A stretch of DNA of 64,000 bases from Naegleria gruberi (taxonomy: Eukaryota): assembly GCA_000004985.1 (NCBI GenBank), contig GG738903.1. One strand, 5' to 3'. The notes under the pieces were generated by a model. It was given only the letters and a program-made list of their open reading frames with translations. It made no database searches and was not told the DNA's origin. Below, one piece after another: positions 5,452 through 62,801 of the stretch. How positions within the stretch are numbered: position 1 is the first letter of the stretch; every line of letters begins with the position of its first letter. Position numbers and translations under genes: made by a program.

Positions 5452-8400
5452 TTAATAATTTCCTCTAACTCTAATAATACTAATATTCTTTTCACTTTCA
5501 TCATTATTTTCATCACTTCCATCACTACCATTATTAGTATTATACATATTATTATTACTACCAGTAATATTATTATTATTATTATTTATATTATTATTAT
5601 TTAAAATAATTTGATTATTAAAATGATAATATTTTAAAATATTATTAATTAAATAATCATATGATAATAATCTAATTCTTTGACAAGTAGCAGGTGAATC
5701 AAGTATAAAAATATTAAAATTATTTAAATTATTTCTTCTAAAAGATTTAATAGCATTTCTAATAGCAAATAAAACACAACATGCTAATTGTAAAGGTGGT
5801 TCACCAATTGCTTTAGATCTATATATATTACTATTACATTCTGTATTTTCTTTTAATAATAAATGTATTTTAAATTTTAAAGAAATATCATTAAATGATG
5901 GTATTTTATAATTTGATGGTCCTATTGAAAATAACATTCCACTATTTATCCATTTATTTATAATTATATTATTATTATTTAAATTATTTAAATTATTTAA
6001 ATTATTATTATTATCAATTAAATTATTTAAATTATTTAAATTATTATCACCCCATATTAATTCTTCCATTAAATATAAACCAATACCNNNNNNNNNNNNN
6101 NNNNNNNNNNNNNNNNNNNNNNNNNNNNNNNNNNNNNNNNNNNNNNNNNNNNNNNNNNNNNNNNNNNNNNNNNNNNNNNNNNNNNNNNNNNNNNNNNNNN
6201 NNNNNNNNNNNNNNNNNNNNNNNNNNNNNNNNNNNNNNNNNNNNNNNNNNNNNNNNNNNNNNNNNNNNNNNNNNNNNNNNNNNNNNNNNNNNNNNNNNNN
6301 NNNNNNNNNNNNNNNNNNNNNNNNNNNNNNNNNNNNNNNNNNNNNNNNNNNNNNNNNNNNNNNNNNNNNNNNNNNNNNNNNNNNNNNNNNNNNNNNNNNN
6401 NNNNNNNNNNNNNNNNNNNNNNNNNNNNNNNNNNNNNNNNNNNNNNNNNNNNNNNNNNNNNNNNNNNNNNNNNNNNNNNNNNNNNNNNNNNNNNNNNNNN
6501 NNNNNNNNNNNNNNNNNNNNNNNNNNNNNNNNNNNNNNNNNNNNNNNNNNNNNNNNNNNNNNNNNNNNNNNNNNNNNNNNNNNNNNNNNNNNNNNNNNNN
6601 NNNNNNNNNNNNNNNNNNNNNNNNNNNNNNNNNNNNNNNNNNNNNNNNNNNNNNNNNNNNNNNNNNNNNNNNNNNNNNNNNNNNNNNNNNNNNNNNNNNN
6701 NNNNNNNNNNNNNNNNNNNNNNNNNNNNNNNNNNNNNNNNNNNNNNNNNNNNNNNNNNNNNNNNNNNNNNNNNNNNNNNNNNNNNNNNNNNNNNNNNNNN
6801 NNNNNNNNNNNNNNNNNNNNNNNNNNNNNNNNNNNNNNNNNNNNNNNNNNNNNNNNNNNNNNNNNNNNNNNNNNNNNNNNNNNNNNNNNNNNNNNNNNNN
6901 NNNNNNNNNNNNNNNNNNNNNNNNNNNNNNNNNNNNNNNNNNNNNNNNNNNNNNNNNNNNNNNNNNNNNNNNNNNNNNNNNNNNNNNNNNNNNNNNNNNN
7001 NNNNNNNNNNNNNNNNNNNNNTCTGAATGCTATCTAATACTAATCTAACTGTTTGTTGACTTTTTAATGCTCCAATTGCACATGCACATGCTATTAAAAT
7101 ATTAAATTAAAAATATAAATTAAATATTAAATTAATAAATATTAAATAAATAAAATTTAAAAAAAAACCTACCTAAAACAGAAGCTCTTGTTTCTTTACC
7201 ACCAAAACCACCACCTATTTTTTGTGGAGTTTTAACTTGTATTTGATTCATTGATAAATTTAAAGCTTTTGAAACTAATTGTTGAGTTGTTGAAATTGAT
7301 TGAGTTGATGAATAAATAGTCCATCCACTCTTTTCAATAAAATTATTAGATTCAGGTATTACTAAACATGATTGTGTTTCTAAATAAAAATGTTCTTGTC
7401 CACCAATATAACAATCACCTTCTATATATTCATATTCATTTTCTATTTTAGTATTTTTAATCATTTCTTTAAATTCAGAAAATGAAATATTTGAACTTTG
7501 TAAATGTCTATATTGATCATTAAAAAATGAATTACTATTAATAGCATCATCTATATTTAGTATAGGTTTACTATTTTCAAATGGTTGATATTTAATAATT
7601 ACTTTTTTAGATGCTTCTCTTGCTTGATTTAAAGTATTTGCTAAAATTAAACCAATTAATTGTCCACATGAAGTTGATTCACTACTTTTAAATACTTCTT
7701 CTTCATTTGGTATTACAATACCAATATTATTATTTGGTACATCTTTATAATTTACAAAATATTTAACACCTTCCATTTCAAGTGCTTTACTTTCATCAAT
7801 TTCAATAATTTTAGCATAAGGTTGTGTTGTAAATATAGGATAGGCTTGTAATTCATTTTCTAAATGTGGAATATCATCTAAATATTGTGATTTTCCTTCT
7901 ACTGATTTTTTACCATATATATCAACATGATTTTTACCAATAGTATTTAATTCTTTAACTAAATTTAAATCAATTATATTTGATTTTAATTTTAAATCTT
8001 GAATATATTGTCCAAATTCATATTTATCTATTTTAGGTAAGTAATGATATTCACTTTGAATACTTTCTTCTTCTTTTGTAATATTTAAACAATTTAATTG
8101 TTTTTTAACATGTGTAAAAAATTTAATTAAAAAACTTTGTGATAATGTCATTCTATATAAGGATTGACCACCTGGTGTATTTTCATTTAAATTTAATTTT
8201 TCATTTAATAATTTAATTGAATTTTCTAAAATTAAATTATAATTTTCAATAAAATTCTTTCCAATTAAATATTCATTTAAATAATTTAAATAAATTACCA
8301 TAAATGACATTCCACCAAATGAAATTGAACAATCTTCAATTATATTATTATTATTTAATTTAATTGTCATACATGAATTAACAATTGCAATATCATCTTC

Positions 8401-9760
8401 TTTTCTTTTAGATTGTTTAAATGCTTTACAATAAATATTATTATCAGTTACTATATTTGGAATTATTACATTCAATAATATTTCAGTAGGTAATATATTT
8501 AATTTTCTATATCCAATATATAAATCTCTAATTGAAATATTTCTAATTTCATTTGTTTTAATATTTAATAAATTTAATTTAGCATTTAAAGATTGCCAAA
8601 TTGGGACAAGATCTGAAATTGGTGAACCTGTCATTATATTACCACCAATAGATGCAACATTTCTAATTGGAGTAGATGCAAACCATTTACATTGATCTAA
8701 AATTGTTTTAATTTTTCTATTTTTAAATTCTAAATTACTTTCCATAAATGTATTTAAATATTCCATTAATTTTTGTATAGTAATACTTGAACCAATTAAT
8801 AATTCATTAGAATTTTCATTTAATTGTAAATTTAACATTTCATTAATATTTATTAATGATATAAAATGTGAATATTCTAAATTACGATGTTTAATTTCCA
8901 AACTAACTTCTGTATTTCCAATTATGTATTTAGGAATTATATTTTTAGAATTTAAATTTAATATTATATTTTTTAATTCATTTAAATTAATTGGTCTATA
9001 CCATTCAATATTATCATCTTTATATGATAAATATTTAAATTTATAATTTCTTAATTCAAATGGAAATAAATATTCTTTTTCATATTTAATTTCATTTATA
9101 TTATTATTAATATTATTATTAGTAATAGTATTATCATCATTGGATGGAGTTGGTTCAGTTGTTTTATTTTTAACTTTACAACAACCACCTTCTTTATTAC
9201 AATTACCACATCCATTACCATAAATAGAAGTATTATTATTAGTATCATTTATATTATCATTTAAATCATGATTATATTCATCAGATAAAGATATAGCCAT
9301 ATCTAAAATAGATCTATAACCAGTACATCTACATAAATTACCATCTAAAGATAATTCAATTTGTTTAATTGTAGGCTTTGAATAATTTCTTAATAAGGAA
9401 TATAAACTCATAATAATACCAGGTGTACAAAAACCACATTGTAAAGCATTAAATTAAACAACTTTACTTTTTAATAAAGTTAAAATTGAATCTTGTTTAA
9501 TACCTTCTATAGTAATAATAGAACATCCATCTAAATGTATTAATGGATATAAACAGGCATTAATAGAATAATTAATAATCTTATTTTGTAATGTATCATA
9601 TTTAGATAACATTACAATACAACTACCACATCCACCTTCTGAACAACCTATTTTAGTACCTGTTAATTTTAAATATTCTCTCAAATATTCTGCTAAATTT
9701 AATTTAATTAATAAATTATTTAATTTTAATTCAATACGTTCACCATTAACATAAAATAAT
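5452..9760 (-). CDS. xdh: Xanthine dehydrogenase/oxidase (molybdenum hydroxylase). The N-terminal 2Fe-2S region is 9454..9760, the FAD and Mo-cofactor core is 7132..9453, and the C-terminal segment is 5452..6069. The middle is interrupted by assembly gap 6088..7021.
   Basis: N-terminal 2Fe-2S motif 'VNGERIELK...LTGTKIGCSEGGCGSC'. Second 2Fe-2S and FAD region 'CGFCTPGIIMSLYSLLRN...GNLCRCTGYRSI'. C-terminal 'AIGEPPLQLACCVLFAIRNAI' matches the conserved XDH C-terminus. Asn-rich insertions are present. Confidence 0.8.
6088..7021. other. assembly gap (run of N)
   Basis: N characters in the sequence. Confidence 1.
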
Positions 9761-11496: not shown

Positions 11497-12060
11497 CAGA
11501 TGATTAGAATAACAGGTTTATCACACAATTCGCCATTAATTGATTCACATTTCCAAAATTGATACCAATTAATTCTTCTAGTCTTTTTATAGACGATTAA
11601 GGCAAGCTGGTTTGTAATCATCGGCATGTAATTACCACCAAATAAAACCATTTGATTTCCAACAAAAATGAGCGACAACAATTCATCCATTTAAATTATT
11701 AAATGTCTTTTTATGTTTTGAACTCCATCACCTTAATTCAATCAATATTGTGTAGGGGACATTTAAAGATTGAACGCTTACTATTTTATAATACCTTAAT
11801 AATATTTTATTAAGATGCAGAATTGTGTTTTGATTCGATTTAAAAAACAGTACTTTTCATCATTAAACTATAGTAATAAGAGAGAACACATGTGAGGAGG
11901 AGTTTGAATGTGTTCAATAGGGTGAATGAGAGGAATATCATCGAGAACAGCGCCGCAGGACCAATTAAGGCAAAAATCGGACTGATCCCAAGTAGAAAAA
12001 GCATCACAGAACGACACTGCTCCATGTGTGTTTCACTCTCTACCGATCTATTGTTGTCGT

Positions 12061-21452: not shown

Positions 21453-24400
21453 TTAATAATAGTTGATTAAGCATACAATGATAACAACAAATAATACCAT
21501 CATAATCATTGAATGTTTTAACATTGAGGAAGAATTGAGTGTAATAGTAGTTGATGTCATTAAATCAGAAGGTGATGGTTGAATTGGTGAAGGTTGTTGT
21601 TGTTGGTTATTAAAAAATCTTAGAATATCAAATGAATGATAACTTTCAACAACTGAAGAAGAAGCCAATTGATTTCTACTTGTTCTTCTACTGGAAATTC
21701 CATCATTTGTTAGAATAGTTTCTGTATGAATGAAACAATCATTAACACTTCCAAATGTAGAATTGGAAAACATTTGTGAAGTTAATTTAAAACTAAATGC
21801 AATTTGATTATTAACAAATGGGAATTTGATAATTGTTGATTCATATTGAGATATTTCACTTTGATTTCTAACAAGTTGAATCCAACTAGTCATTAATGAA
21901 GGATTGTAAACAGTACATCCTAGTTGACCATTTGTTAAATCAAATGTTGGCATTGATCGACCTGAACTAACACAACACAAATAAGAATTCTTAATAGAAA
22001 TTCTAACTGTACTTTGTAATGAAGCTGCCTTTCCTTCAGTATCTACAACCTTTACAACAACATGTGGCTTTTCAGATAATTGAAATAAATTCTTTGATTC
22101 CTTGAAATTATCAGAAAATAAACTCAATTGAGTTAAAAGTTTAAATTCTGAAGGAGGTGGATTAATTGGCATGTAATACGAAAGTGAAATAATTAATGGT
22201 ACTTGATATAAATCACCCTCTGGAGATTTAACATAAACTTGGAATGTGAAATCACCTGAATAGTAATTTAAATATTCTCTTGCTATAATTGTCATGTAAT
22301 ATTCACCATTTGATTTGAATTGTAATGAAATATCAAATGACACATTGTGATTTGGTTCTGACTTGCTAAATGAAACACTTTCAATGAAGGCTTTTTGTGA
22401 GAATAAAGTACCTGAAACTTTCAATTTGTTATTCGAAACTGACAGTAATTCTCTTCTGAATGAAATTTGACTAATTGAACTATTTGAATTAACAACACCC
22501 ATATCAATATATTGATGAGATGAAAGTAATAACTTGATTTGATGATCAACTTTGTAATTTGTAATTTGACAATAATTATTATTAGAAATTAAACTAATGT
22601 AAATTGGAACTGTCAAGGTAAGAACAACTCCAGAAGAATCTAATTGTTGAGTGACTCTTGAATCAGAAATCAAATCAGAAATAGAAGTAGAAATAGAATA
22701 TTGAGTTTCACATGTCAATTGACTTGTAGAATTTGTGACAAGATCAGTAACATTTCTTTCACAAGTAGAAATTTCAGAGAATGATAATCTTGTCATGTTT
22801 GTAGATCTTGAAAGAATATTAGAAACTGAAATGGTATACATAATCTTTGAAGATCCTAAATTTGTAACTGAAACCTTTGGCGGAGAATTAATAAACGAAA
22901 GACAATTCTCCGTCTGAATTTCACACATTGAACCACTTGAATATGGAGGACATGTGAGACAAGATGTGGAATTGATACAACTTTCACATGTAGATGGACA
23001 AGTATTACTGCAATCTGAACCATATAATCCATTAAAACATTTAGAACATTGATTTGGAGATGAACATGCAATGCAATTCTCATTACAAACTGGAATTTGA
23101 CATGTTGGACCTGTCCATCCAGATCTACATGTTGAACATGATACCTCTGATGAACATGATTTGCAATTAGATGGGCATATAATATTACAATAACTTCCAT
23201 AATATCCTTCGTTACATTCTAAACAATCACCTGTACTTGTTGAACAGGTTGCACAATTGGAAACTTTACAAACTTTCTCATTACAATATTGACCTTTCAA
23301 ACCATCTAAACACTTATTACATGTTTCACTTGATGAACATACTTCACAATTAACTAAACATTTGAGTCTACATAATTTAGAAGTATCATAAAATCCACTC
23401 TTACATGATTGACAATTAGATGCAGATGGAAGACAATTAGAAACTGAACTAATCTCACAATTAGTACCATTATATCCATTTGGACATGAACAATTATTAG
23501 GTGAGAGACATGAACCAATACCAGAACAAACACTTGCAACATCAGCTCTCTTTCCACCACAAATTGGAACTTCACAATTAATTCCTGCATAACCTGTTTT
23601 ACAATAACACATATCAAGCTCTTCACAAATTCCGTTTCCACTACATACATTAGGATCTGAATCAAATAATCCATTACACATGGTTGGTGAATAAATCATA
23701 TTTCCAATAACTTGCTTTCCAACACCACCTCCCCATAAAGAACCTGAAGTGGATGGATTTGCTGCTGGATATGGAAATTTATAGAAAGGTCCTACAATGT
23801 AATTATTACCATTATATGCTGTGAACATGAGAGAGTTATATTCTATAAAAGTTATTCTAGTGATTCTCTCAGTTGTTCCAATGAATGATGTAGATAAGAG
23901 TGTTGGATAGGAAACTCTTGGTAGTAATGAACTCCAGGAACCTGTGTAAAATATTTTGCCACTCTCCATTAGATACATCACAACATTTTGTGAAAAAGAA
24001 ATGGACAGGAGAATTTCACTTCCAAAAGTAGTAATGTCTAATTCTAGTGGTGAATACTGACAAAGTCCAGTATTTGTACCGTAGTAATTATCAGAAATTG
24101 GACCCCAAGCAAATAATTTTCTTGATTCTCTACTGTAAGCGAAACATAAATTTTGTAAAGAATAGCAAGAAAGGTATGAAATTTTGTGTGGGATAGCCAA
24201 TTTTGTAAAGTTTGTTTTGTAAACTCCAAAAAATCCACTTGGATAACAACCAGCAACAGATAATTCACCAAAAGATCTAACATTTCCTTCTTTAGTCAAA
24301 AAAAAGGAATAGAAATAATTTGTTTGAACATCAATAAATGTCTCATTAATTCCAGTATTGTAAACCATTGTTGGAGAATTAGGGAATGAAGGATAACTTT

Positions 24401-26279: not shown

Positions 26280-26691
26280 CTTGATGAATTTTGAATACCA
26301 ATGTATTGAATTGCTGTGATTGGTTGTTTGCATTGTGCGTGGGTGGGAATGCTCACGTTGAGACTTCCCAACCAAGGTTTTGACAGGTTGGACATGTTGA
26401 ACAGAAATGCAAGGTAATGCATTAAATGAGAATCTCATTATCCAACTTTGAGCTTTAAATACCAACAACTAGTTTTTTAATTAGGACATAACTATCTTAC
26501 TGATTTAAAACTACGAACGATAAGTTTGTATTTTTTTGTTGTTGAGCAGTAGGAATCTTTATTGATATTCCTAATGGATGTTAGATAATAGCAAATAATA
26601 TTTTCATGGTTTTTACTAGACTTTGCATAGTATTTAAAAATATGAAAACTAATGCTTGTGGTTTAACTATGAAAGAAAAAGAAACAAAAGC

Positions 26692-41049: not shown

Positions 41050-43413
41050 TTACAATATGATATCTATTGCACTCTCTTCTTTTAGTGAAATGTATTTTGG
41101 AATCAGTTTTTGCATTTCTTTTTCTAGTTCTGTTGTGAATTCTCTATTGTTTTTCAGCTCGTTTGAAGCAAATTTGAGAGTATATGGTATTTCCAATACC
41201 GCAGCAGTTACAATCTGCTTATCGTTTCTCAATTCCTCTGAGGCAAACTTGAGAGCATTTCCATTTTTAGAGATGGCTGCTAGTACTACTTGCCTATCAT
41301 TTTTCAGTTCCTCTGAGACATACTCGAGGTTTAATCCATTTTGTTGTACTTTTTGTAATGCTAATTCTCTATTATCTATTATTGATAGTGGTTGAGAGGA
41401 AAATACAAATGGTAAAATATAAGTAAATGGTTTTTTGAAAATGAGAATGTCGCCATCTTGTTTCAGTTCTTCAGATGCAAATCTAAAGGAAGAGCCATTG
41501 TTTTGAACTGCCTTCATAACAACCTCTTTGTCATTTCTCAATCTATCCGATGCATATTCAAGAACAATTCCATCCAGTTGAACTGCAGCTAGAACAATAT
41601 CCCTATCGTCCCTTAGTTCTTCTGTGCAGTGTTGTAAAGCTATTGGATTATTTTTAACTGCTTCCATAGCAATAATCTTGTTTCCTTTAAAAGATGTTCC
41701 ACAAAATTTAAGAGAATTTCCATTTTTTCTAATGGCCAAGCTAACTATTTCTAAATCATTCCTTAAAGCCTTACATGCATACCCAAGATTGTTACCGTCT
41801 CTTTTAATAGCTTCTGTAACAATATGACGATCTTTCTTCAATTCCTCAGATGCATAACTAAATGATCCACCATCGGTATTCATTGCCTCTATTATTACAT
41901 CCTTATCATTTCTCAAATTTTCACATGAATAATATAGAGCATTACCATAATTCTTCACTGCTTTCAAGACCATTTCCTTATCATTGTTGAAATGAGGAAT
42001 GCAACATAGTGCTTGTCCTTTTAATTCCATTATTTTTAACATGAATTCTCTATTATTCTTCAATTCTTCAGAGGTCAGTGATAGATTTTTAATTGCATCC
42101 TGAGGTTCACTCATCAATGCAACTTGATAAATGATTTGCTGATCATTCAAAAGTTTAGTAGAGGCATACATAATAGCGTTTGAATTTTGAGTAATAGCCT
42201 CCATTACAATTTCAAAATCATTTCTAAAAGAGAGTGCATATTCAAGAGACATGCCATTTTGTTTTACACACCCTAAAACAAGTTCTTTCTCTATCAAAAA
42301 GTCCTCTGGTGATACAAATTGAAGATTGAGGCCATTCTTTTCACATACATACGAAACAACACTCTTACTATTTTTAAATGGGTGTTTTAAATTTTGAAAA
42401 CAATCAACCAAGCTAGTAACTTTGCCATTCAAATTATCAAACATCACCTGAAATATATTTTCAATAGAATATCTATTGTCTTCGTGAATACATGTCATTC
42501 CTTTACATAAGTCCTTAATTACAATCCATGAAGAAGGATCATTCTCAAATTCGCTAATAGTGGTAGTAGTATTAGTAATAATATTTTGGAATAATGTTTC
42601 GATATCATTCCACAATTCTTCTTGTTGATATTTTAATTGTAAGTGAAATCGATCTAGAAATAGAAATGATAGAATAGTAATACCCAGACTAAAAATATCA
42701 CATTTGCAGGAACATTTTCCATTAAGGATTTCTGGAGCAATAAACCCAATTGTACCAGCAAAACCTGTAGCAGAAGAGTAACAGGAGCTAGTACAATCAT
42801 CAACCAATTGCTCATTATTTTCCTCATTTAACAATAACATATCATCTAAATTATTTTCTGCCATTGTGGCACATCCTAAATCTCCCAACACTATCATTCC
42901 CTCCTCACTCATAAAAATATTTTCCGGTTTAACATCTCTGTGAATGATATGATTCAGTGATAGGGATTGCAAAGCTCCACAACACTGCACAATGATTTGT
43001 AATACCATTAAAATTGAAACTCTTTCCAAGTTTTTTCTCACATCACGCAAATTATTTCCTCTAAATTTAGATATAATAACATATTCTCGTAAGGTTATAG
43101 AGGCTTCATCATCATCATTATAATTATTAAAAGTTTTCATCGATAAAACATTGGCATGATTTGTGTGTTTATACTTTTGCAAATACTCGCTTCTGGTTTC
43201 TCCAGTCTCAAGTAAACCTGAATCATCATGAATAATTTTAAAAACCATCAATGATTGATCGCTCATCTTTCTACACTTGTAAACCCATGTTGTTGGATTT
43301 CGGTAAATTTCTGCTATGGGAAAATAGTATTCACCTTGAAATTCAAAACTTGTTCCATTGTTGTTATTATGGAAAAGAAGCGAAGAAATGGTGGACTGAA
43401 GAGATTTGGTCAT
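41050..43413 (-). CDS. Protein kinase (N-terminal) followed by about 12 DUF4116-like repeats. The domain order is inverted relative to the 16723 gene.
   Basis: Kinase motifs 'HRDVKPENIF', 'LGDLGCA' and 'GFIAPEIL'. Repeats such as 'VVLAAISKNGNALKFASEELRNDKQIV'. Confidence 0.7.
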   Translation of the reverse strand: MTKSLQSTISSLLFHNNNNGTSFEFQGEYYFPIAEIYRNPTTWVYKCRKMSDQSLMVFKIIHDDSGLLETGETRSEYLQKYKHTNHANVLSMKTFNNYNDDDEASITLREYVIISKFRGNNLRDVRKNLERVSILMVLQIIVQCCGALQSLSLNHIIHRDVKPENIFMSEEGMIVLGDLGCATMAENNLDDMLLLNEENNEQLVDDCTSSCYSSATGFAGTIGFIAPEILNGKCSCKCDIFSLGITILSFLFLDRFHLQLKYQQEELWNDIETLFQNIITNTTTTISEFENDPSSWIVIKDLCKGMTCIHEDNRYSIENIFQVMFDNLNGKVTSLVDCFQNLKHPFKNSKSVVSYVCEKNGLNLQFVSPEDFLIEKELVLGCVKQNGMSLEYALSFRNDFEIVMEAITQNSNAIMYASTKLLNDQQIIYQVALMSEPQDAIKNLSLTSEELKNNREFMLKIMELKGQALCCIPHFNNDKEMVLKAVKNYGNALYYSCENLRNDKDVIIEAMNTDGGSFSYASEELKKDRHIVTEAIKRDGNNLGYACKALRNDLEIVSLAIRKNGNSLKFCGTSFKGNKIIAMEAVKNNPIALQHCTEELRDDRDIVLAAVQLDGIVLEYASDRLRNDKEVVMKAVQNNGSSFRFASEELKQDGDILIFKKPFTYILPFVFSSQPLSIIDNRELALQKVQQNGLNLEYVSEELKNDRQVVLAAISKNGNALKFASEELRNDKQIVTAAVLEIPYTLKFASNELKNNREFTTELEKEMQKLIPKYISLKEESAIDIIL

Positions 43414-51977: not shown

Positions 51978-53924
51978 ATGTCATCTGCTGAAGTATTTGA
52001 TGGAGCTATTGGTATTGATTTGGGAACAACTTATTCATGTGTTGGTGTTTATATGGGAGATAATGTAGAAATTATTCCGAATGATCAAGGTAATAGAACA
52101 ACACCTTCCTATGTTGCATTCACTGATGAAGAACGTTTAATTGGTGATGCTGCCAAGAATCAAGTTGCAATGAATCCACACAATACAGTATTTGATGCTA
52201 AACGTTTAATTGGTAGAAAGTTTTCCGACTCAACAGTTCAAGATGATATGAAACATTGGCCATTCAAGGTCATTACAAAGAGTGATGAGAAACCATACAT
52301 TCAAGTTGAATACAAGGGAGAATCACATGTTTTCACACCAGAACAAATCTCATCCATGGTCTTGACCAAAATGAAGGATATTTCAGAACAATATTTGGGT
52401 AAACAAGTCAAGAAGGCAGTCATTACAGTTCCTGCCTATTTCAACGATTCACAAAGACAAGCAACCAAGGATGCTGGTGCAATTGCTGGTTTGGAAGTTT
52501 TGAGAATTATCAATGAACCAACAGCTGCTGCCATTGCTTATGGTTTGAATAAGAAGGGTGAGAGAAATGTTTTGATTTTCGATTTGGGTGGTGGTACTTT
52601 TGATGTTTCAATTTTGAATATTGAGGATGGTGTTTTTGAAGTGAAAGCCACTGCTGGTGATACTCACTTGGGTGGTGAAGATTTTGATAACTTGATGGTT
52701 CAATTCTGCTGTCAAGAATTCAAGAGAAAGTACAAGAAGGATATTCAAGAAAATCCAAGAGCATTAAGAAGATTGAGAACTGCCTGTGAAAGAGCCAAGA
52801 GAAATTTATCATCAGCTGCCAATGCTTCAATTAATGTTGATTCAATTATGGACGGAATTGATTTGGATATTTCAATGACTCGTGCTAAATTTGAACAATT
52901 GAATATGGACTTGTTTAAGAAGTGTTTCGAACCAGTCAAGAAGGTTTTACAAGATTCAGGATTGGATAAGGCACAAATTGATGATGTTGTTTTGGTTGGT
53001 GGTTCAACTCGTATTCCAAAAGTTCAAGAAATGCTCAGAGAATTTTTCAACGGTAAAGAATTGTGCAGATCAATTAATCCAGATGAAGCTGTAGCTTATG
53101 GTGCTGCAGTTCAAGGTGGTGTTTTAACTGGTAAGGAAACCAAAGTCTTGCTGATCGATGTTACTCCACTTTCATTGGGTATTGAAACAGCTGGTGGTGT
53201 CATGACCAAATTGATTGAAAGAAATTCAACCATTCCATGTAAGAAATCTGAAATCTTCTCAACCTATGCTGATAATCAAACAGCAGTCACTATTCAAGTC
53301 TTTGAAGGTGAAAGAACCTTGACAAAGGATAATCACTTGTTGGGAAGATTTAACTTGGAAGGTATTCCACCAGCACCAAGAGGTGTTCCAAAGATTGAAG
53401 TCACATTTGAAATTGATTCAAATGGTATTATGAAAGTCTCTGCCAAGGATACTTCATCTGGTAAGACACAAAACATTACCATCAAGAATGAACAAGGACG
53501 TTTGAGTAAGGAAGAAATTGAAGAAATGGTCAAGAAGGCCAAGGAAATGGAACAATTTGATAAGGAATTGAAAGAAAAGATTGATGCCAAGAATCAATTA
53601 GAGGCCTACGCCTATCAAACGAAATCCACTGCTGATGATCCAAACTTGTCTGGTAAATTATCAGATGCTGATAAGAATACCATTAAGAAGACGTGTGAGG
53701 AAGTTATTAATTGGTTAGATAACAATTCTACCTATTCAAAGGATGATATTGAAAAGAAAAGAAAGGAATTGGAAGGTAAATGTGCACCAATTGTTAGCAA
53801 GCTGTATCAACAGGGAGCTGGTCAACCAGAATTCACACCAAATGGTGCAAACTTTACCTCATCAGGTAATACTTCCAGTGATTCTGAATCAAAGCCAAAG
53901 TTTGAAGATGTTGATGTTGATTAA
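51978..53924 (+). CDS. Cytosolic Hsp70, single exon, 648 aa. C-terminus reads 'FEDVDVD'.
   Basis: '[14 protein letters not shown]', '[12 protein letters not shown]', '[13 protein letters not shown]' and the full NBD and SBD architecture are present. Confidence 0.95.
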
Positions 53925-54005: not shown

Positions 54006-57000
54006 TTACTTCTTTTTTTTAAATTCTGCAAGTAAAGAATGCGAAAGAACATCCTGAGCTTGAGGCCTTGTTAAATTATCCTTTTCAAGCATGCTCAATA
54101 CTAAATCGATAATTTCGTTCGAATATCTTTCCACCAATGTCTTTCTCAGCATTTGCACAACTTCTTTCTCATCTCTATGTCCATACAATTCGGAGATTGA
54201 CGTGGTTATGTCTTTGGTCATGATCTGATACATAACTACTCCCAAACTAAAGATATCTGCATTAAAGTAGTGTTTGTATACAGACACTATTTCTGGAGAT
54301 GAAAAGATTGGATTTACTTTCGTTCCAAAAACTCCATATCCAAAATCTGAAATTAATGCATGAATATTATCGTTATCCAAACTCTTGATGAGTAAATTGG
54401 AATGTTTGATGTTTGCATGAATGCATTTTTCAACACAATGTGAATATTCCAAACCTGTACATATTTGAAAAATGATCTGTTTCACTAACTTTTCAGAAAC
54501 ATTAAAGTTTCGATTAGTCAACTTGCTGAAATCACCCATTTCGAAATAATCCATATCAATGCAAATCTTTTGATCTATTGTACTCACGAAAATCTCATTA
54601 ATTTTACAAATATTTGGATTGGTAGTATTCAGTAGATGAACGGCTTGATTAAGGAATTTGTTCACATCTTCCTCAGATTTGTATTTGACAATTTTGATTG
54701 CTTTTGAACAATTCTTGACAGAATCGATTACTTTAAAGACATTTCCACTTCCAATTCTTGCAATATTGGTATATCTCAAGTGAGGATTGAATTCAGCACT
54801 GATGAAGGCATTTTCTAATTGGAAACTGTAACCACTGCTTGGTTTTAAGTAATATGCTTGAGTTGGAAGATTATCATAGACTAATTCAATATCTCCAGAG
54901 TTGATAGTAGCAACATTGGAAAGAGTTTCCGTTCTTGGTTGTTTCTTTTTCATTCTCCAAACAATGCAAATCAAGAGAATGATAACAATAATGATAATTA
55001 GAATAACAACAAATGCAACTGGAACTGCAATAGCTGCTGCAAGAGCACCTGTATCCATTCCTTGTTGAGCATTATCAGGATTTCTGTTATTACTCAATTC
55101 GGAAATTGGTGAAGATGGTTCTGTAACTATTGGAGGAATTGCTGGGTTGATAATATATGGTAATTCTTGAATGGTGAATAAACTGAGGTGGGATACTTGA
55201 CATTCTAAATCAAAATATAACAAGTCTCCATTTCGTTTTGTTATAGTTACAGAGCTGCTAATTCCTGATTGAGACCAACTTTTCGAATTATCAAGAAAGA
55301 CGCAGGATGCATTGATACCAGTCTTGTTAGCTGTAACAAGTCCTTCAAATTTGAAAATAATAGGATCTGCCAGATTGTCAACCTTCACTCCATTTCCATT
55401 CTTGTCATAAATTGACAAATCCAAAGATGGCCTCACTGAAAGAATATTTCCATCATTGGTGTCATTGGTAATCATTGTTAAGGCATAGAAAATCATAGAT
55501 TTTGATCCTAAATTTTGAACTTGTTCTGAAAATTTGCTTGGGAAGGTAATTTTCACATTCAACAAATCTTTGGAAATGGAAACTGATTTGGAATTGAATT
55601 GTTTTTCAAGTTGAAGGATTTGAGTGGAGATTAATCCATCAGAGGAGGATTTTCCTGTGAGTTTGTAGTAATCTAAATGATACTTGGCTAATTCTCCTTG
55701 CTTTGTTGCGTTATTGGAAAAAGTGTTCGAAAGAATGGTCATTAAACTTGAAATTTCATCAAAGTTCTTTGAATCTAACAGAGTTTTGTAAACATTGGAG
55801 GAATAATAGGAACGTGCTTGATTCATAGAAGCGAATATCCAGTCCATCCACCAAACTATTTCAGAACTAGTTGAAACTGAGAACTTTTCTAATAGATTAA
55901 AGATAGTCGAAATTGAAGGCAGAATTAATTGAACAATCTTTTCATCAGCGTTGTAGCTTAATGAAGGAATATCTTTCAGAGCACTCAACATATCAATAAG
56001 AATGGAAACTGCTTCTCTCTTTGCATCTTGTGAGATTATTCTTTCGGCGACATTATTCAAAGTTTCGTCTTGAGTAATTAATGATATTAAGGCATTTACA
56101 GAATTAATTGTATCTACAGTCAGTGGTTTGGATTGTCTCAGTGCAGCAAATTCATTACTGACATAATTAATTCTAGAAAGAAGTGAATTATTCGAAATAT
56201 CAATTTTTTCTGGCAATAGAGATGGCAAGTTATTTCTAAATTCACTCACAGTTCCAAATTCATTGATCATTTTCACAACCAAAACTAAACTTTGTTGATT
56301 GAAGAATGGTAAGTGAGTCACAATTGTATTTTTCAAACTATTCGAAAGGACAAATAATCTTTCATTTTGTGAGTGAACTTCCATTACAATACTAGAAATG
56401 GAATCTTGTGGAAGTGTTAAACAACTAATAGAAACCAAAGTTTCATGAGCAATAATATCCCTTTCGTTTTTCACTGTTTCTAATAAACAAGTAAATCTTG
56501 GTTTCATATCGATTCTAGTAGAAAGTGTCAACTTGGAAGAGCCATCTGTATTTGTAGTTTCCAATTCAAATTCGTAAAATTCACCTTCAATAAGATATTC
56601 TTTTCCAATATTAAGGTAAACTTCTAGGGAGTTTCCAACAAGAATATTAGAAACTGTGAAAAGTTCAAGATTTGGAGAATTTCTCAATTTTCCATTCAAG
56701 ACTTTCCAATTCAAAGTAACTAAACTTTCAGATTCGACCACACAATATAACGAAAGATTCTTTCCTTCTGGATATACTGATGGAATGTAATCTGGTGTTA
56801 ACTTAGGAACAGAAGTGGCAGAGTTGACCAATTCAATGTAACCAAAATAGGAGAAGGTACTTTCCGCTGTCGTAACATTGGTTCCTATCAAATAGATACC
56901 TTCAAAGAATCCAAGAGAATTAAAATCCGTTTCTAATTGGCAAGATGTTCCTTGACATAAATTATTCGAAACATCCATAATTGACTTGTCTAAAGTTCTG

Positions 57001-60000
57001 TAACAATACCAAGAATAAGATTTTGTAATAGAAGAAACGAAAGGATCATCACTTTCTAATGCAATTGTTAACTTTCCTGAATTTAGAGAAATAGTTCTGT
57101 TAACATTAGTTAATCTCAAGTCAATTGAATTGATTGGTGACTTTTTGATAGGATAGTCGATATTTAGAGTTGATTTAGATTCCCTATGCGTACCTATTAC
57201 CTTAAAAGTTGACAAATTTTCTTGTGGAATTCTTATCATTTGCTTATTAGAAAGCTCTGTATTTATCATTCCAGATACATCATACGAAAGTGAAGTATTT
57301 AATGACAGAGGAGATACTTCAAATAAACAATTATATCCTTTACATTCAAGATTATCAATCAAAACATTAAAGGAAGGAATAAGTTGTCCTTCTGGGTTGA
57401 CTTGAAGATTTTTAACACTTGAAGTCGAAATATACTTCTCATTAGTCGTATTCATCACAATATCGAATACATTCGGAATATCTTTCAATATACTCTTTGG
57501 AATACTAATAACTGTCTTGTTTGCATAATTGACCAAGGTGGAAGAAACAGTTTCAATGGAGGAAGACCAAATTTGAGAAATTTTCTTGAAATGATGATAT
57601 GAAGGTGGAATGTATGATCTGATAATCAAGTCCTGAGAGGATGGAATCAAATCTACGAGTTGCTGAATGGATGGAGTGGAAGGAGTTTGAGGAATTTCAA
57701 AGTCAACTTGGAGTTGAATTCCAAATGTTGTCTTGATAATTGAACCAGTTTCAATTAGATGATTATATCCTAAATAAATCTTGAGATTATTTCTTCTCCA
57801 TTGACATTTAAGCAAGTCAACTTGACCAAATTTGGAAATATCATTTTCTTGAATGAAATTTTCACATCCTTCAACTACAGATTCATTCAAAAACATGTTC
57901 AATACATTAGAATAGGAATAAATTATAGCATTATCAACATCCATTTGAACACTGAGATATTGACATTCATTTCCAACGAAACCTTTCAAACATTCACAAT
58001 TGTTTGGAGATTTACATTGGCCATTACCTGAACATACATTTGAATCAATTTCTGACTTGGAATAGCAAACATTGTATTGACAGTTTCCTCCTGTGAATCC
58101 AGTTTTGCATGAGCATTCGTCTGGTTTCAGACATTTACCCTTTCCAGAACAAACACTTTCGTTATTCGAAAGAACTCCATTACATTTGGCCAGAGAACAT
58201 TCTAAACCGTTCCAACCATTATTACATGTGCAATTATTGTAACTAGAGCATTTGCCATGACCAGAGCAAACATTTGGCATGTCAAAAGTCAGAGAATAAC
58301 ATTTGATTTTGTCACATTTGTCTCCACCCCATTCTTCTGAGCAAGTACAAGTACCACTAGTTAAGCATTGATAACCATTTTGACAAATGCTCTTATTAAC
58401 CCTTGAACAATTGAAAATGTCACAATCCAAACCAAAATAACCCAATTGACATTCACAAACATCTGGAGATTGACATGTGCCAGAAGCAGAGCAAACAGAT
58501 TGATTCAAACTTGATACACCAAAACAATCAAATAAATCACATAAACTTCCTCCATATCCTGAATCACATTTACAAATAGCAATTCCAGTTTCGTTTAAAC
58601 AAGTTCCATTTACACATTGTAAAGTACATGGATTTGGAATTTCACAATTGTATCCATAGTGGCTTGATTTACATGCACAAGTGTCTTTGTCTGTACAATT
58701 ACCGTGACCAGAACAAACTGTAGAGTTGAGTGAATTCACTCCATAACAGTTGAATTTTTCACATTCTTTTCCATAGTAACCTTCTTGACATGTGCAGTTA
58801 TCAAGTGATGAGCAGATTCCTCTTGATGAACAAACTGAAAGTGAGTCTTGAGCCTTTCCATAACAATCAAATTTTTCACAATTTTGTCCATAGTAAGGTT
58901 TTGTACAATTACATGTATCGATATTGGAACAATTACCATGTGATGAACAAACATCCTTCTTATCATTTCTTACACTGAAACAATCATAATACTGACAACT
59001 TTCTCCATAGAAACCTTGTTGACAAGAACAATTATTCAATGAGAGACACACTCCTTTTCCAGAACACACATTCGAATTGAGTGAGCTAACATTATAGCAA
59101 TTAAACTTTTCACACTCTTTGCCATAATAACCTTCCTTGCATGTGCAGTTATCAAGAGAAGAGCAGATACCTCTTGCTGAACAAACATCTCCCATATCAT
59201 TTCTGATACTAAAACAATCATAATATTGGCATCTTTCTCCATAGAAACCTTGTTGACAGGTACAGTTATTCAGGGAGACACAAACTCCCTTTCCAGAACA
59301 AACAGTTGAGTTGAGTGAGGAAACATTATAGCAGTTGAATTTTTCACATTCTTTTCCATAATAACCTTCTTGACATGTACAATTATCAAGTGATGAGCAG
59401 ATTCCTCTTGAAGAACAAACTGAAAGTGAGTCTTGAGCCTTTCCATAACAATCAAATTTTTCACAATTTTGTCCATAATAAGGTTTTGTACAATTACAAG
59501 TGTCAATATTTGTGCAATTACCATGTGATGAACAAACATCTCTCTTATCTTTTCTAACACCATAGCAATCGAATAATTCACAATTGCTTCCATAAAACCC
59601 TTGTTGGCAGGTACAATTGTTAGCAGAAACGCAACTTCCTTTTCCTGAACAAACTGTAGAGTTGAGTGAATTCACTCCATAACAGTTGAATTTTTCACAT
59701 TCTTTTCCATAATATCCTTCTTGACATGTGCAGTTATCAAGTGATGAGCAGAATCCTCTTGAAGAACAAACTGAAATCGAATCTTGAGCCTTTCCATAAC
59801 AATCAAATTTTTCACAGTTTGTTCCATAGTAAGGTTTTGTACAATTACATGTATCGATATTGGAACAATTACCATGTGATGAACAAACATCCTTCTTATC
59901 ATTTCTTACACTGAAACAATCGTAATACTGACACTTTTCTCCATAGAAACCTTGTTGACATGTACAATTATTCAATGAGAGACAAACTCCCTTTCCTGAG

Positions 60001-61612
60001 CAAACATTCAAACTAGTGTTCTTGACACCAAAGCAAGAAACTAATTCACAGTTACTTCCATGATATCCTTCAGAGCATGAACAATTGTTAGGAGAAACAC
60101 ATCGACCTTTCGAATAGGAACAAACTTCTGGACTAGTGGCCAAAATATTCGAACATTTAGGAACGTTACAATTGGAACCACCATACATTTCGGTACAGTT
60201 ACAAACTCCAGGTGCTAGACAATTTCCATTTCCTGAACATACGCTTGGAGAATTTGCCAAAACATTTCCACATTTGTGAATGTCACAATTTTGACCTCCC
60301 CAAAAAGTTGAATTCCAACATGAGCAATTATTTGCATAGACACATGTACCAATTCCAGAACAAACACTAGTATCATTAGCCATTATATTATTACATTTAG
60401 GAATTTCACAAAATTCTCCTCCCCAAAGTGAACTATTGAAACAATTACAAATGTCAAAATTCAAACAAACACCTCTTCCAGAACAGACATCTCCACTATA
60501 TTGGGGATAACCGAAACATACAGCTACACATTCATTCATAGTAGCATTGTATACATAACCTCCTGTGCAATAAGGTTCAATTTTTCTAATACGGAGATTA
60601 CCAGTATCTTTTTCAAAGTATTCGAAATATAAATTCTTCACTACTACTTACCAAGAATAAAAATATGACCTTCTGAACTAACATCCACATCATAGGTATT
60701 ATTCATCTTTACCAAATCACTTCCAGGAGTTTTAGCAACGCCTGAAAATAATGAAATTGTAGCTAAATTTTGGGTACCAGTAGTTCCATAAGAAAATTTC
60801 ACAACACGAACAACATGATTTCCTCTGTCAGCAATGTAAAGATCCTTGTTGGGTCCATAAGCAACTCCAGTAGGTGCGTTATACAAGGCATTGAATGCAC
60901 TGCCATCGGCATAACCAGCAGACCCAACACCTAAATAGGAAGTAGCTCCAGAGCCTGTCCTAATTAAACGATGAGTACCTGGTTCAGCAAAAGTCATTTC
61001 AGTACTAGAAAAGGCTGCGACTCCAGCGGATAGAGAACCTTGTACAATAAGTTGCTGAGTAGAGATGAAATTATTAGCTTTCGTATACTTTCTAACTCTG
61101 TAATTCAATGAATCTGAAAAGTAAATATTGCCATTTGGAAGTGAGGTAACATATTTCGGCTGATTTAGGTATGCATTTGTAGGGAGGGTATTCAAATCAT
61201 TGGCAACACCAGAAACTCCACATTTTCCAATAATTGTTTTAATCTGTCCATTGCTTACTTCTCTAATGACATGATTTAAAGTGTCAGCAATCAATAACTT
61301 TCCTTCTGATGTAACACATATACCACCTGGATAATTCAGCATGGCACCTGTAGCTGTAGTATTAGTGTCGTTTCCAGCAATTCCAGTTCCTGCCACGATT
61401 GTTACTTTCAATGTTGTCAAATCTAATCTTTTCACAAGGTGGTTTTTGGAATCTGAAATGAAAAGTTCATTATTATTACCAACAGCAATTCCTTCAGGAG
61501 AGTTGAAACCTTGTAGGTAGATGTGAGTGATGTTGTACAGAGGTGCAATAGAGTTGACTAAACTCAAGTGCAATAGTATTAGAAACAAGACGAAAGTAAT
61601 GAGTCTTGCCAT
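54006..61612 (-). CDS. Probable single receptor-kinase gene encoding signal peptide, NHL-repeat beta-propeller, about 40 tenascin-type EGF repeats, a TM helix and a protein kinase. Proposed exon 1 is 60652..61612 and exon 2 is 54006..60607, with a 44-nt intron at 60608..60651 (GTAAGT..AAG). Alternatively the two ORFs are joined by a 1-nt assembly indel.
   Basis: Exon 1 has signal peptide 'MARLITFVLFLILLHLSLVNS' and NHL units such as 'LYIADRGNHVVRVV'. It ends at '...FILG' followed by a GTAAGT donor. The big ORF begins with no signal peptide ('...DTGNLRIRKIEPYC') and its ORF-track start is a GTG. TM segment 'ALAAAIAVPVAFVVILIIIIVIILLICIVW'. Kinase motifs 'AIKIVK', 'IKHSNLLI', 'SDFGYG' and 'SPEI'. 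Confidence 0.7.
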
Positions 61613-62250: not shown

Positions 62251-62801
62251 TTATTCTGCAGCAACAACTGGTGGAACTTCTTCAGCAACTGGTTGAACAG
62301 GTTCTTCGTTCTTGGTTCTCACAGCTAGAACCAATTCTTCATTCATTGCTCTTAAGCTATTAACTTCATCATTCAAACTTTTAATCTTGTTATCATTTTC
62401 TTTTAAAAAGTTGTTTTCAATCAAAGTATTCGAAATGGCTACAACTTACCTTTGAGCATTCTTTCAAACTTCTTCTCCAATAAGTAAACCTGTTCTTGAA
62501 GGAAATCTTGACTTGTAATTTCAGTCTTTTCCAATTTCAAACACTTGGTTCCAATGGTGAGTTCAATGACTCCTTGAGTTTCGTCTGAAATCTTGACTGA
62601 AACAAGTCCACTTACCAATTGAGTAAAAACCTTTGTATTGATGACTTCAAGAGGACAATTGCCATTCATATACTTGACAGAATTTTCAAAGTCAATCAAG
62701 AATACTTTTCCAGATTGTTGGGATGAGAAAGATTCATGATAGGCAAATCTGAATTTTGAGTTGTTGGATTCAAGGCAAGCATAGTGGGTTGGGGAAGACA
62801 T
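62251..62801 (-). CDS. Small protein with a PH/EVH1-like fold and a C-terminal coiled-coil. Two exons: 62450..62801 and 62251..62397. The intron is 62398..62449 (52 nt, GTAAGT..AAG).
   Basis: Exon 1 ends 'LKG' at a GTAAGT donor. Exon 2 reads '...ENDNKIKSLNDEVNSLRAMNEELVLAVRTKNEEPVQPVAEEVPPVVAAE*' in the correct phase. Confidence 0.4.

What the first reader, a model, noticed from the sequence alone, without database searches (positions are those of the whole stretch)
54006..61612. NHL-propeller, EGF-stalk and kinase probably form one receptor-kinase gene that is currently split
The 322-aa NHL ORF has a signal peptide and ends at a GTAAGT donor. The 2211-aa EGF-TM-kinase ORF directly downstream has no signal peptide, and its listed start is a GTG. 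A 44-nt intron (60608..60651) joins them in phase, and so would a single-base insertion. The result would be a ~2.5k-aa type I receptor with an NHL beta-propeller, about 40 tenascin-type EGF repeats, one TM helix and a cytoplasmic kinase. I am not aware of a described protein with this domain combination.
Basis: partly seen in the sequence, partly recalled or inferred. Interest (0 to 1): 0.75.

Follow-up and report, generated by a model that had tools for sequence, protein, structure and literature searches.

The report
Naegleria adhesion-type receptor pseudokinase gene
The two reading frames are one two-exon gene of the amoeba Naegleria gruberi, joined by a 44-base intron; it encodes a 2,520-residue surface receptor whose outer part ends in a GAIN-like domain (so far described only in adhesion GPCRs and polycystins) and whose inner part is a kinase-like domain that has lost its catalytic aspartate.

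Summary
ORFs 60644..61612 and 54006..60641 (minus strand) are joined in phase by a 44-nt GTAAGT...AG intron (60608..60651), giving a 2,520-aa type I membrane protein. The decisive evidence is a 60%-identical orthologue on a metagenome contig. It is one uninterrupted ORF and aligns without a gap across the splice junction, which lies inside the sixth NHL blade.

The window is Naegleria gruberi NEG-M. Accession order implies exactly one public model at this locus, but I could not retrieve it.

- There are 22 EGF repeats, not about 40.
- About 930 residues between the EGF stalk and the membrane were overlooked. They comprise Ig-like beta-sandwich modules and a GAIN-like domain with a conserved HL|S site about 45 residues before the single TM helix.
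- The kinase domain matches Pkinase strongly but has HAN instead of HRD and a shortened glycine loop. Naegleria paralogues are canonical, so this is probably a pseudokinase.
- The same NHL-EGF-TM-kinase architecture already exists as unnamed N. gruberi and N. fowleri models.

The gene-structure claim is routine. The GAIN-like domain on a single-pass kinase-type receptor is the unusual part, and it rests on prediction only.

The parts
60652..61612 (-). Exon 1: start codon at 61610-61612, aa 1-320 plus the first base of codon 321
   Evidence: ORF list, sequence, spliced translation. The N-terminus aligns with the orthologue's N-terminus.
60608..60651 (-). 44-nt phase-1 intron: GTAAGTAGTAGTGAAGAATTTATATTTCGAATACTTTGAAAAAG
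   Evidence: Canonical GT..AG ends, and removal restores the frame. The orthologue has no insertion at this site. Other short GTAAGT/GTATGT introns of 30-73 nt join ORFs elsewhere in the window. The neighbouring gene's similar 50-nt intron is confirmed by an exact match of its spliced product to EFC38985.1.
54006..60607 (-). Exon 2: the rest of codon 321 through aa 2520 and the TAA stop at 54006-54008
   Evidence: It is collinear with P0121 to the last residue (EFKKKK against EFKKRK).
61550..61612 (-). Predicted signal peptide, aa 1-21
   Evidence: Hydropathy scan and inspection. No signal-peptide predictor was available.
60570..61549 (-). Six-bladed NHL beta-propeller, aa 22-333 (this span includes the intron). 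The blade motifs lie at aa 49-64, 105-120, 162-177, 205-220, 257-272 and 316-331.
   Evidence: Pfam NHL E 6.8e-28 and TEN_NHL E 1.2e-13. Blade motifs located. The sixth blade is split by the intron.
57957..60569 (-). 22 EGF-like repeats (39-aa period, six Cys each), aa 334-1204
   Evidence: Regex and Cys count. Pfam EGF_Teneurin, EGF_2 and EGF_TEN at 219-231 bits. DNA tandem periods of 117, 234 and 351 nt. The window gene has nine more repeats than P0121.
56199..57956 (-). Family-specific all-beta region, aa 1205-1790: several Ig-like beta-sandwich modules
55161..56198 (-). GAIN-like domain, aa 1791-2136: a helical subdomain followed by a beta-sandwich
55182..55190 (-). HLS tripeptide (aa 2127-2129) at the turn before the last beta-strand: a candidate GPS autoproteolysis site
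   Evidence: The motif C..D....W...G.....C...(S/T)HL(S/T).F is conserved in five of six family members. Pfam GPS is below its cut-off: E 0.06 for the window gene, best E 0.0047 among members, matched in 3 of 6.
54960..55055 (-). Single transmembrane helix, aa 2172-2203, followed by RMKKK
   Evidence: Kyte-Doolittle scan finds only this segment and the signal peptide. There are 52 N-glycosylation sequons and 148 Cys on the N-terminal side, against 4 and 6 on the C-terminal side.
54024..54776 (-). Ser/Thr-type protein-kinase-like domain, aa 2265-2515. The glycine loop (54729-54755) is three residues shorter than in the paralogues. HANIKHSN (54396-54419) replaces HRDxKxxN. DFG (54339-54347) is kept.
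   Evidence: Pfam Pkinase 115.9 bits. Alignment to STK25. Alignment to the Naegleria paralogues, which have GQGSFGSV and HRDIKPSN. This is the most conserved domain against P0121: 72% identity with no gaps.

Best explanation
**Shown.** This is one two-exon gene of Naegleria gruberi, with exons at 61612..60652 and 60607..54006 and a 44-nt intron between them. It encodes a 2,520-aa type I membrane glycoprotein. From N- to C-terminus it has:
- a signal peptide;
- a six-bladed NHL propeller;
- a stalk of 22 EGF-like repeats;
- Ig-like beta-sandwich modules;
- a membrane-proximal GAIN-like domain with an HL|S site;
- one TM helix;
- a cytoplasmic Ser/Thr-kinase-like domain.

The kinase-like domain lacks the catalytic Asp (HAN instead of HRD) and has a shortened glycine loop.

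**Inferred mechanism.** The protein probably works as an adhesion-type surface sensor.
- The propeller and EGF stalk would bind an extracellular ligand or surface, such as prey, substratum or other cells.
- The GAIN-like domain may self-cleave at HL|S, giving a non-covalently held ectodomain that can report pulling force or shedding.
- The conserved but probably inactive kinase domain would signal as a scaffold or allosteric partner. A plausible partner is one of the catalytically canonical paralogues of the same family, in the way HER3 pairs with active ErbB receptors.
For: **Gene structure**
- ORFs, donor, acceptor and frame are as described.
- Orthologue P0121 is a single 6.5-kb ORF with the same domain order. 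It aligns gap-free across the junction and end to end at 60% identity.
- The sixth NHL blade is completed by exon 2.
- Neither the 322-aa ORF nor an M344-start product exists as a public protein.
- Flanking genes match EFC38983.1/EFC38925.1 and EFC38985.1 exactly, which leaves one accession slot for this locus.

**Domains**
- Pfam matches NHL, EGF and Pkinase.
- There is a single TM segment, and sequon and Cys counts give the topology.

**GAIN-like domain**
- The AF2 model has pLDDT 81.
- The HL(S/T) motif is conserved at the last beta-turn.
- GPS is the only Pfam family that recurs among family members.

**Pseudokinase**
- The STK25 alignment shows HRD replaced by HAN and a glycine-loop deletion.
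- Paralogues P0123, P0124 and P0133 keep GQGSFGSV, HRD and DFG.
- The domain is still the best conserved against P0121, at 72% identity.
Against: - There is no transcript evidence for splicing.
- The public model at this locus could not be retrieved, so its structure is inferred only from accession order.
- GAIN support is fold-level only:
  - Foldseek against PDB gave no hit at E <= 0.001. GPR97 GAIN reached only E 5e-3, probability 0.99.
  - A profile search of PDB sequences found nothing.
  - Pfam GPS is below its gathering score.
  - The motif has two of the four canonical GPS cysteines and one of the two canonical tryptophans (canonical counts from my own knowledge; motif).
  - The AF2 alignment held only six sequences.
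- Self-cleavage cannot be predicted from sequence, and many true GAIN domains do not cleave.
- Kinases with Asn in place of the HRD Asp can keep weak activity (HER3; my own knowledge).
- The ligand, the signalling partner and the cellular role are all inferred.
Confidence: 0.8

Rival explanations
1. There are two separate genes: a secreted 322-aa NHL protein, and an independent EGF-TM-kinase protein translated from an internal start.
For: The two ORFs are mechanically separate, and the first ends in a stop. Retention of the intron would give a secreted truncated NHL protein.
Against: - The orthologue is one ORF, collinear across the junction.
- The split falls inside an NHL blade.
- The second ORF has no ATG before aa 344, which lies inside the first EGF repeat, and it has no signal peptide.
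- Neither product exists as a public protein.
- Accession order leaves only one slot between the flanking genes.
Confidence: 0.03
2. The split is a frameshift, either an assembly error (one missing base) or a recent pseudogenising mutation, rather than an intron.
For: The assembly contains gaps elsewhere in the window.
Against: - The insertion would have to fall within about 3 nt, between a stop in one frame and a stop in the other.
- It would insert about 15 residues into blade 6 that P0121 lacks.
- The 44 nt have a perfect GTAAGT donor and an AG acceptor, and they resemble a confirmed intron 1.8 kb away.
- The remaining 7.5 kb of coding sequence is intact.
Confidence: 0.03
3. The gene structure is the same, but the cytoplasmic domain is an active receptor Ser/Thr kinase and not a pseudokinase.
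For: The beta3 Lys (AIKIV), the catalytic-loop Lys and Asn, the DFG Asp and SPE are all kept. The domain is strongly conserved. Some HxN kinases retain low activity (my own knowledge: HER3).
Against: - The catalytic Asp is Asn in both the window gene and P0121.
- The glycine loop is three residues shorter than in the paralogues and lacks the third Gly.
- The alphaC Glu position is Gln in the window protein.
Confidence: 0.2
4. [not shown]
Against: - The HL(S/T) tripeptide sits at the last beta-turn, about 45 residues before the TM helix, and is conserved down to 28-38% identity.
- GPS is the only Pfam family that recurs across members.
Confidence: 0.2

Closest known systems
Unnamed Naegleria paralogues and homologues: N. 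gruberi XP_002673894.1 (D2VPM5), XP_002674574.1 (D2VMZ5), XP_002673750.1 (D2VQ96); N. fowleri XP_044565022.1
   Same: They share the order NHL, teneurin-type EGF, family-specific region, GAIN-like domain with HL(S/T), single TM, Pkinase. Identity to the window protein over the Ig-like and GAIN-like regions is 22-38%, depending on member and region.
   Different: They keep the canonical GxGxxG and HRD motifs. The numbers of NHL and EGF repeats differ. None carries a functional name.
Adhesion GPCRs (BAI3/ADGRB3, latrophilins, CD97, GPR56 and others)
   Same: They also have a large adhesive ectodomain with EGF-type repeats. It ends in a GAIN fold with an HL|S/T site directly before the first TM helix.
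   Different: The window protein has one TM helix and a kinase-like domain where they have a 7TM G-protein-coupling domain. Its GPS motif has only two Cys and one Trp. Sequence similarity is below Pfam's threshold.
Polycystin-1 / PKD1-like / sea-urchin REJ proteins
   Same: This is the other family described with GAIN domains, and it has an extended helical subdomain of up to eight helices (PMC11697300). The model here also has about eight or nine helices.
   Different: No REJ, PLAT or polycystin-channel Pfam match was found, and there are no multiple TM helices.
Mycobacterium tuberculosis PknD-type bacterial Ser/Thr kinases with an NHL propeller sensor (my own knowledge)
   Same: An extracellular six-bladed NHL propeller is coupled through one TM helix to a Hanks-type kinase. 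The best NHL sequence matches here are bacterial, and one of them is labelled a bacterial Ser/Thr kinase.
   Different: The topology is opposite: in PknD the kinase is N-terminal and the sensor C-terminal. PknD has no EGF, Ig-like or GAIN modules and is an active kinase.
Teneurins
   Same: The Pfam models that match best are the teneurin NHL and teneurin EGF models.
   Different: Teneurins are type II proteins with a YD shell and a toxin-like C-terminus and have no kinase (my own knowledge). None of those parts is detected here.
Receptor pseudokinases such as HER3/ErbB3 (my own knowledge)
   Same: A single-pass receptor whose kinase domain has Asn in place of the HRD Asp and sits alongside catalytically competent paralogues.
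   Different: The kinase lineage is unrelated (Ser/Thr-type HxNxKxxN; nearest solved structures are STE20-like kinases), and the ectodomain is unrelated. Heterodimerisation is only a hypothesis here.

Membership tests
Eukaryotic protein kinase domain (Pfam PF00069) | Profile match above the curated gathering score | tested here: met
   115.9 bits against a cut-off of 31.7, covering profile positions 4-262 of 263.
Catalytically active protein kinase | Catalytic Asp in the HRD motif | tested here: not met
   HANIKHSN aligns to HRDIKAAN of STK25 and to HRDIKPSN of the paralogues. P0121 has HGN.
Catalytically active protein kinase | Complete glycine-rich loop GxGxxG | tested here: not met
   IGSGN---VFK against IGKGSFGEVYK of STK25 and IGQGSFGSVFK of the paralogues. 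There is a three-residue deletion and the third Gly is missing.
Catalytically active protein kinase | Beta3 Lys and DFG Asp | tested here: met
   KAIKIV and SDFG are present.
GAIN domain | Two-subdomain fold: a helical subdomain A followed by a beta-sandwich subdomain B | tested here: met
   [not shown]
GAIN domain | GPS motif recognised by Pfam PF01825 above its gathering score | tested here: not met
   14.3 bits against a cut-off of 22.5 (E 0.06) for the window segment. Three of six family members match, best E 0.0047. The match is at the right place but below threshold.
GAIN domain | HL-S/T cleavage tripeptide in the turn before the last beta-strand, immediately N-terminal to the first TM helix | tested here: met
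   H2127-L2128-S2129 lies between model strands 366-375 and 380-385, about 45 residues before the TM helix. It is conserved in five of six members.
GAIN domain | Autoproteolysis into non-covalently bound fragments | not testable with these tools
   This needs protein biochemistry.
Adhesion GPCR | Seven-transmembrane domain after the GAIN domain | tested here: not met
   There is one hydrophobic segment after the signal peptide and no 7TM Pfam match.
Polycystin-1 / REJ family | REJ module, PLAT domain and multiple TM helices | tested here: not met
   No such Pfam match appears even at E <= 10, and there is a single TM helix.
NHL-repeat beta-propeller | Repeated NHL motifs sufficient for a closed six-bladed propeller | tested here: met
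   Pfam NHL E 6.8e-28. Six blade motifs were located, and the sixth needs exon 2. The fold itself was not modelled.
Teneurin | Type II orientation with a YD-repeat shell and a C-terminal toxin-like domain | tested here: not met
   The protein is type I, with an N-terminal signal peptide and the TM helix near the C-terminus. Only the NHL and EGF sub-models match.

The most novel reading that the evidence does not exclude
This Naegleria family would be a third class of GAIN-domain receptor, beside adhesion GPCRs and polycystin-1-like proteins. In it, an autoproteolytic, force- or shedding-sensitive GAIN module is coupled to a single-pass kinase or pseudokinase instead of a multi-pass channel or GPCR. 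That would show that GAIN-based adhesion sensing was in use, and wired to a different output, outside the opisthokonts, independently of the GAIN-7TM module that current work places in stem holozoans.
Probability: 0.3. Interest if true: 0.8.

Novelty: new variant of a known kind. Interest (0 to 1): 0.55.

Why it matters
**Gene structure.** This part only fixes a gene model. A tiny intron inside an NHL blade hides a 2,520-aa receptor from ORF-based reading.

**Architecture.** This is the part of wider interest.
- A recent GAIN-domain paper states that PKD1/PKD1-like proteins are the only family other than adhesion GPCRs known to contain GAIN domains (PMC11697300).
- A recent survey places the origin of the GAIN-7TM module in stem holozoans, while noting that GAIN itself is older (PMC12716839).
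- A GAIN-like domain with a conserved HL|S site in front of a single TM helix and a kinase-type domain, in a discoban amoeba, would give a concrete example of GAIN working without a 7TM partner. It is also experimentally tractable.
- The same family contains a catalytically canonical branch and a degenerate branch. That offers a natural system for studying receptor pseudokinase evolution in a protist.

Tried and rejected
- **Exact look-ups.** Looking up the 322-aa ORF, Hsp70, the RGS gene and P0143 in the contig index found nothing. The N. gruberi scaffold seems absent from that index, so the public gene calls at this locus could not be viewed.
- **Word-index homology searches.**
  - The search with aa 1-433 returned mainly bacterial double NHL propellers and no self hit.
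  - The search with aa 1201-2520 returned only P0121 and missed the Naegleria paralogues. Those came from the exhaustive representative search.
- **Why the self protein was not retrieved.** Clusters can be represented by short fragments: Hsp70's cluster representative is 38 aa. My queries also skipped aa 434-1200.
- **Metagenome scan.** A scan with a GAIN-TM-kinase alignment found no relatives.
- **Structure and profile searches.**
  - The afdb50 fold library was unavailable.
  - Foldseek against PDB was nearly uninformative.
  - A profile search of PDB sequences with the GAIN alignment found nothing.
- **Literature.** Searches for NHL/EGF/GAIN/kinase in Naegleria, and for the accession numbers, found no relevant paper. 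A protist transmembrane-kinase survey mentions none of these terms.
- **Source organism.** From composition and intron style I first considered a dictyostelid, ciliate or trichomonad source. I dropped this once window ORFs matched N. gruberi proteins exactly.
- **dN/dS.** I did not attempt it, because at 60% amino-acid identity synonymous sites are saturated.
Full report
**1. What is in the sequence**

On the minus strand there are two ORFs: a 322-aa ATG ORF at 60644..61612, and a 2211-aa ORF at 54006..60641 whose mechanical start is GTG. The first ORF ends ...ATT CTT G|GT AAG TAG TAG TGA. A perfect GTAAGT donor therefore starts at 60651 and is followed at once by three in-frame stops. The next AG that restores the frame is at 60608. 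Removing 60608..60651 (44 nt, phase 1) gives one open frame of 2,520 codons ending in TAA at 54006-54008.

Other ORF pairs in the window are joined by similarly short GTAAGT/GTATGT...AG segments of 30-73 nt. One of these is independently confirmed (section 3).

**2. Intron, frameshift or two genes?**

The decisive evidence comes from elsewhere. A search with the C-terminal 1,320 residues found P0121, a 2,166-aa protein from an ENA metagenome assembly. It is 59% identical over the whole query. It is encoded by one uninterrupted 6.5-kb ORF on a 7.4-kb contig of 32.6% GC.

Aligned with the spliced model, P0121 is collinear from signal peptide to last residue at 60% identity. It runs through the splice junction without a gap: EGHIFILD|TGNLRIRKIEPYC against QKEVFILDSGNNRIRKLTPYC. 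The junction lies inside the sixth NHL blade, HIFILDTGNLRIRKIE, aa 316-331. The 322-aa ORF alone would therefore encode an incomplete propeller.

A single-base insertion would also fuse the frames, but only within about 3 nt. It would also add about 15 residues that the orthologue lacks.

The second ORF has no ATG before aa 344, which is inside the first EGF repeat, and it has no signal peptide. I conclude that this is one gene with one 44-nt intron. Transcript data were not available to me.

**3. Source and annotation status**

Window ORFs match Naegleria gruberi NEG-M proteins exactly, all on a 304,373-bp scaffold:
- Hsp70 = EFC38925.1 / D2VVY8
- DHHC palmitoyltransferase = EFC38982.1 / D2VVY6
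- a 333-aa protein = EFC38983.1 / D2VVY7
- an RGS protein = EFC38923.1 / D2VVY4
- several others

The next minus-strand gene upstream is at 62251..62801. When I spliced it with a 50-nt intron I predicted (62400..62449), its product is exactly EFC38985.1 / D2VVZ0.

Both accession series run in positional order. Each leaves exactly one slot between the flanking genes, expected to be EFC38984.1 / XP_002671728.1 / D2VVY9. The locus therefore probably already carries a single public model. This is an inference, because I could not retrieve that protein.

Neither the 322-aa ORF nor an M344-start product is in the collection. That fits a joined model or some other different model.

**4. Architecture**

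| Residues | Feature | Evidence |
|---|---|---|
| 1-21 | Signal peptide | |
| 22-333 | Six NHL blades | Pfam NHL E 6.8e-28, TEN_NHL E 1.2e-13 |
| 334-1204 | 22 EGF-like repeats, 39-aa period, six Cys each |; EGF_Teneurin, EGF_2, EGF_TEN at 219-231 bits |
| 1791-2136 | GAIN-like domain | section 5 |
| 2172-2203 | The only TM helix, followed by RMKKK | |
| 2265-2515 | Kinase-like domain | section 6 |

The EGF DNA forms tandem arrays of period 117, 234 and 351 nt at 80-84% identity for the two longer periods. The window gene has nine more repeats than P0121.

The N-terminal side carries 52 N-glycosylation sequons and 148 Cys. The cytoplasmic side carries 4 and 6. This fits a type I topology.

**5. 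The membrane-proximal domain is GAIN-like**

Evidence for:
- An AF2 model of aa 1751-2170, built on six family sequences, has pLDDT 81 and pTM 0.75. It shows a bundle of about eight or nine helices followed by a beta-sandwich.
- The family conserves C..D....W...G.........C...(S/T)HL(S/T).F.
- In the model, H2127-L2128-S2129 sits in the turn between the last two strands, about 45 residues before the TM helix. That is where adhesion GPCRs and polycystin-1 self-cleave.
- Pfam GPS matches at exactly this place but below its cut-off: 14.3 against 22.5 bits for the window gene. It is the only family that recurs among members, in 3 of 6 with best E 0.0047.

Evidence against:
- Foldseek against PDB gave no hit at E <= 0.001. 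Only GPR97 GAIN had high probability (E 5e-3, probability 0.99).
- A sequence-profile search of PDB found nothing.
- Only two of the four canonical GPS cysteines are present.

I rate "GAIN-like fold" at about 0.8. I rate actual self-cleavage much lower, since it cannot be read from sequence.

**6. The kinase domain is probably inactive**

Pfam Pkinase matches over the whole profile at 115.9 bits. The nearest solved structures are STE20-type Ser/Thr kinases.

Against STK25 and against the Naegleria paralogues:
- the window protein has IGSGN---VFK where they have IG(K/Q)GSFG(E/S)V(Y/F)K;
- it has IHANIKHSN where they have IHRDIK..N;
- it keeps the beta3 Lys, the catalytic-loop Lys and Asn, DFG and SPE.

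P0121 shares the loop deletion and has HGN. The alphaC Glu position is Gln in the window protein and Glu in P0121. Paralogues P0123 and P0124 (N. gruberi) and P0133 (N. fowleri) are fully canonical.

Even so, this is the best conserved domain between the window protein and P0121, at 72% identity with no gaps. The degeneration is therefore shared by the window gene and P0121, and the domain is still under constraint. This is the usual signature of a functional pseudokinase.

**7. Family**

An exhaustive HMMER search of 1.84 billion representatives with aa 1205-2190 found only 11 relatives. The full-length ones are N. gruberi XP_002673894.1, XP_002674574.1 and XP_002673750.1, and N. fowleri XP_044565022.1. 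All have NHL, teneurin-type EGF and Pkinase by Pfam. Shorter N. lovaniensis proteins have NHL and EGF, and they match the C-terminal part of the query (the GAIN-like region) without a kinase.

Among the named relatives, the family is found only in Naegleria, apart from one weak tardigrade hit (E 3e-5) with no informative domains. It is annotated only as "predicted protein", "uncharacterized" or a generic kinase.

**8. How it most likely works (inferred)**

- It is probably a surface adhesion or sensing receptor. The propeller and the long, rigid, disulfide-rich stalk would present a binding surface far from the membrane.
- The GAIN-like module next to the membrane may be cleaved at HL|S. Pulling on, or shedding of, the ectodomain would then change the state of the membrane-bound stub.
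- The conserved pseudokinase would relay this change as a scaffold or allosteric partner, possibly to the catalytically competent paralogues.
- Alternatives, kept as rivals, are that the domain is weakly active or that the GAIN-like module is only structural.

**9. Comparison with what is known**

- NHL-sensor kinases exist in bacteria (PknD; my own knowledge), with the opposite topology.
- EGF-containing receptor kinases are common.
- Teneurins combine NHL and EGF but are type II proteins without a kinase.
- Seufert et al. [quoted passage not shown]
- A 2025 survey places the GAIN-7TM fusion in stem holozoans while accepting that GAIN is older (PMC12716839).
- I found no paper linking GAIN to Naegleria or to a single-pass kinase. 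The library is incomplete, so this is absence of evidence only.

**10. Verdict**

Three things were missed: the GAIN-like and Ig-like region, the degenerate catalytic motifs, and the existing Naegleria homologues.

As a gene-model matter this is ordinary. As an architecture it is a new variant of known kinds (receptor kinases and GAIN-domain adhesion receptors), supported by prediction only. Interest 0.55.

Noticed in passing
window 60608-60651 and 62400-62449 (minus strand); also 56329-56347: The receptor's 44-nt intron and the 50-nt intron of the upstream gene (EFC38985.1) look related. Both are phase 1, start GTAAGTnGTAG, contain the exact 16-mer ATTTCGAATACTTTGA, end AAAAG, and have an in-frame stop soon after the donor. 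The exact 15-mer searched, a substring of that 16-mer, occurs only at these two places in the window; six hits at <=2 mismatches against 0.47 expected. A near copy, TTTCGAATAGTTTGAAAAA, lies in the receptor's own coding exon, where it codes for LSNSLKN. The orthologue P0121 has no intron at the receptor site. This could be a recent intron gain by copying, but that is unresolved.
   Followed up: partly
window about 3600-11500: This stretch is a strong compositional outlier. The xanthine-dehydrogenase-like ORF at 7132..9411(-) has GC 20%, GC3 3.9% and Asn 12.5%. Neighbouring ORFs have GC3 of 3-12%, whereas Hsp70, DHHC, RGS and ABC genes on the same scaffold have GC3 of 24-29%. Its introns are long and almost pure AT, which looks dictyostelid-like. 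The stretch is interrupted by assembly gaps at 3064-3642 and 6088-7021 but is continuous with normal sequence on its right. It could be contaminant or chimeric assembly, or foreign DNA; I did not resolve this.
   Followed up: no
window 57957-60569 (minus strand): The EGF stalk is a tandem array with DNA periods of 117, 234 and 351 nt; identity is 80-84% for the 234- and 351-nt periods. It carries nine more repeats than the orthologue. This points to recent internal expansion, and repeat number could be collapsed or inflated in the assembly.
   Followed up: partly
window 41050-43413 (-), 16723-18981 (+), 14556-15851 (+): Three further kinase genes lie in the window. Two of them combine Pkinase with 5-11 DUF4116 repeats. 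A 1671-aa protein with Lipase_3 and teneurin-type EGF lies at 21453-26468 (-). The region is rich in lineage-specific signalling proteins.
   Followed up: no
N. gruberi paralogues P0123 (XP_002673894.1) and P0124 (XP_002674574.1): Their public models stop in the middle of the kinase domain: Pkinase profile positions 1-164 of 263, with divergent tails after DFG. This suggests missed short introns at their 3' ends, the same kind of problem as in the finding.
   Followed up: no
window 51978-53924 (+): The receptor gene's stop (54006) is only 82 nt from the stop of a convergent Hsp70 gene. N. gruberi has a second Hsp70 that is about 100% identical (NAEGRDRAFT_73252) and a third that is 98% identical.
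   Followed up: no
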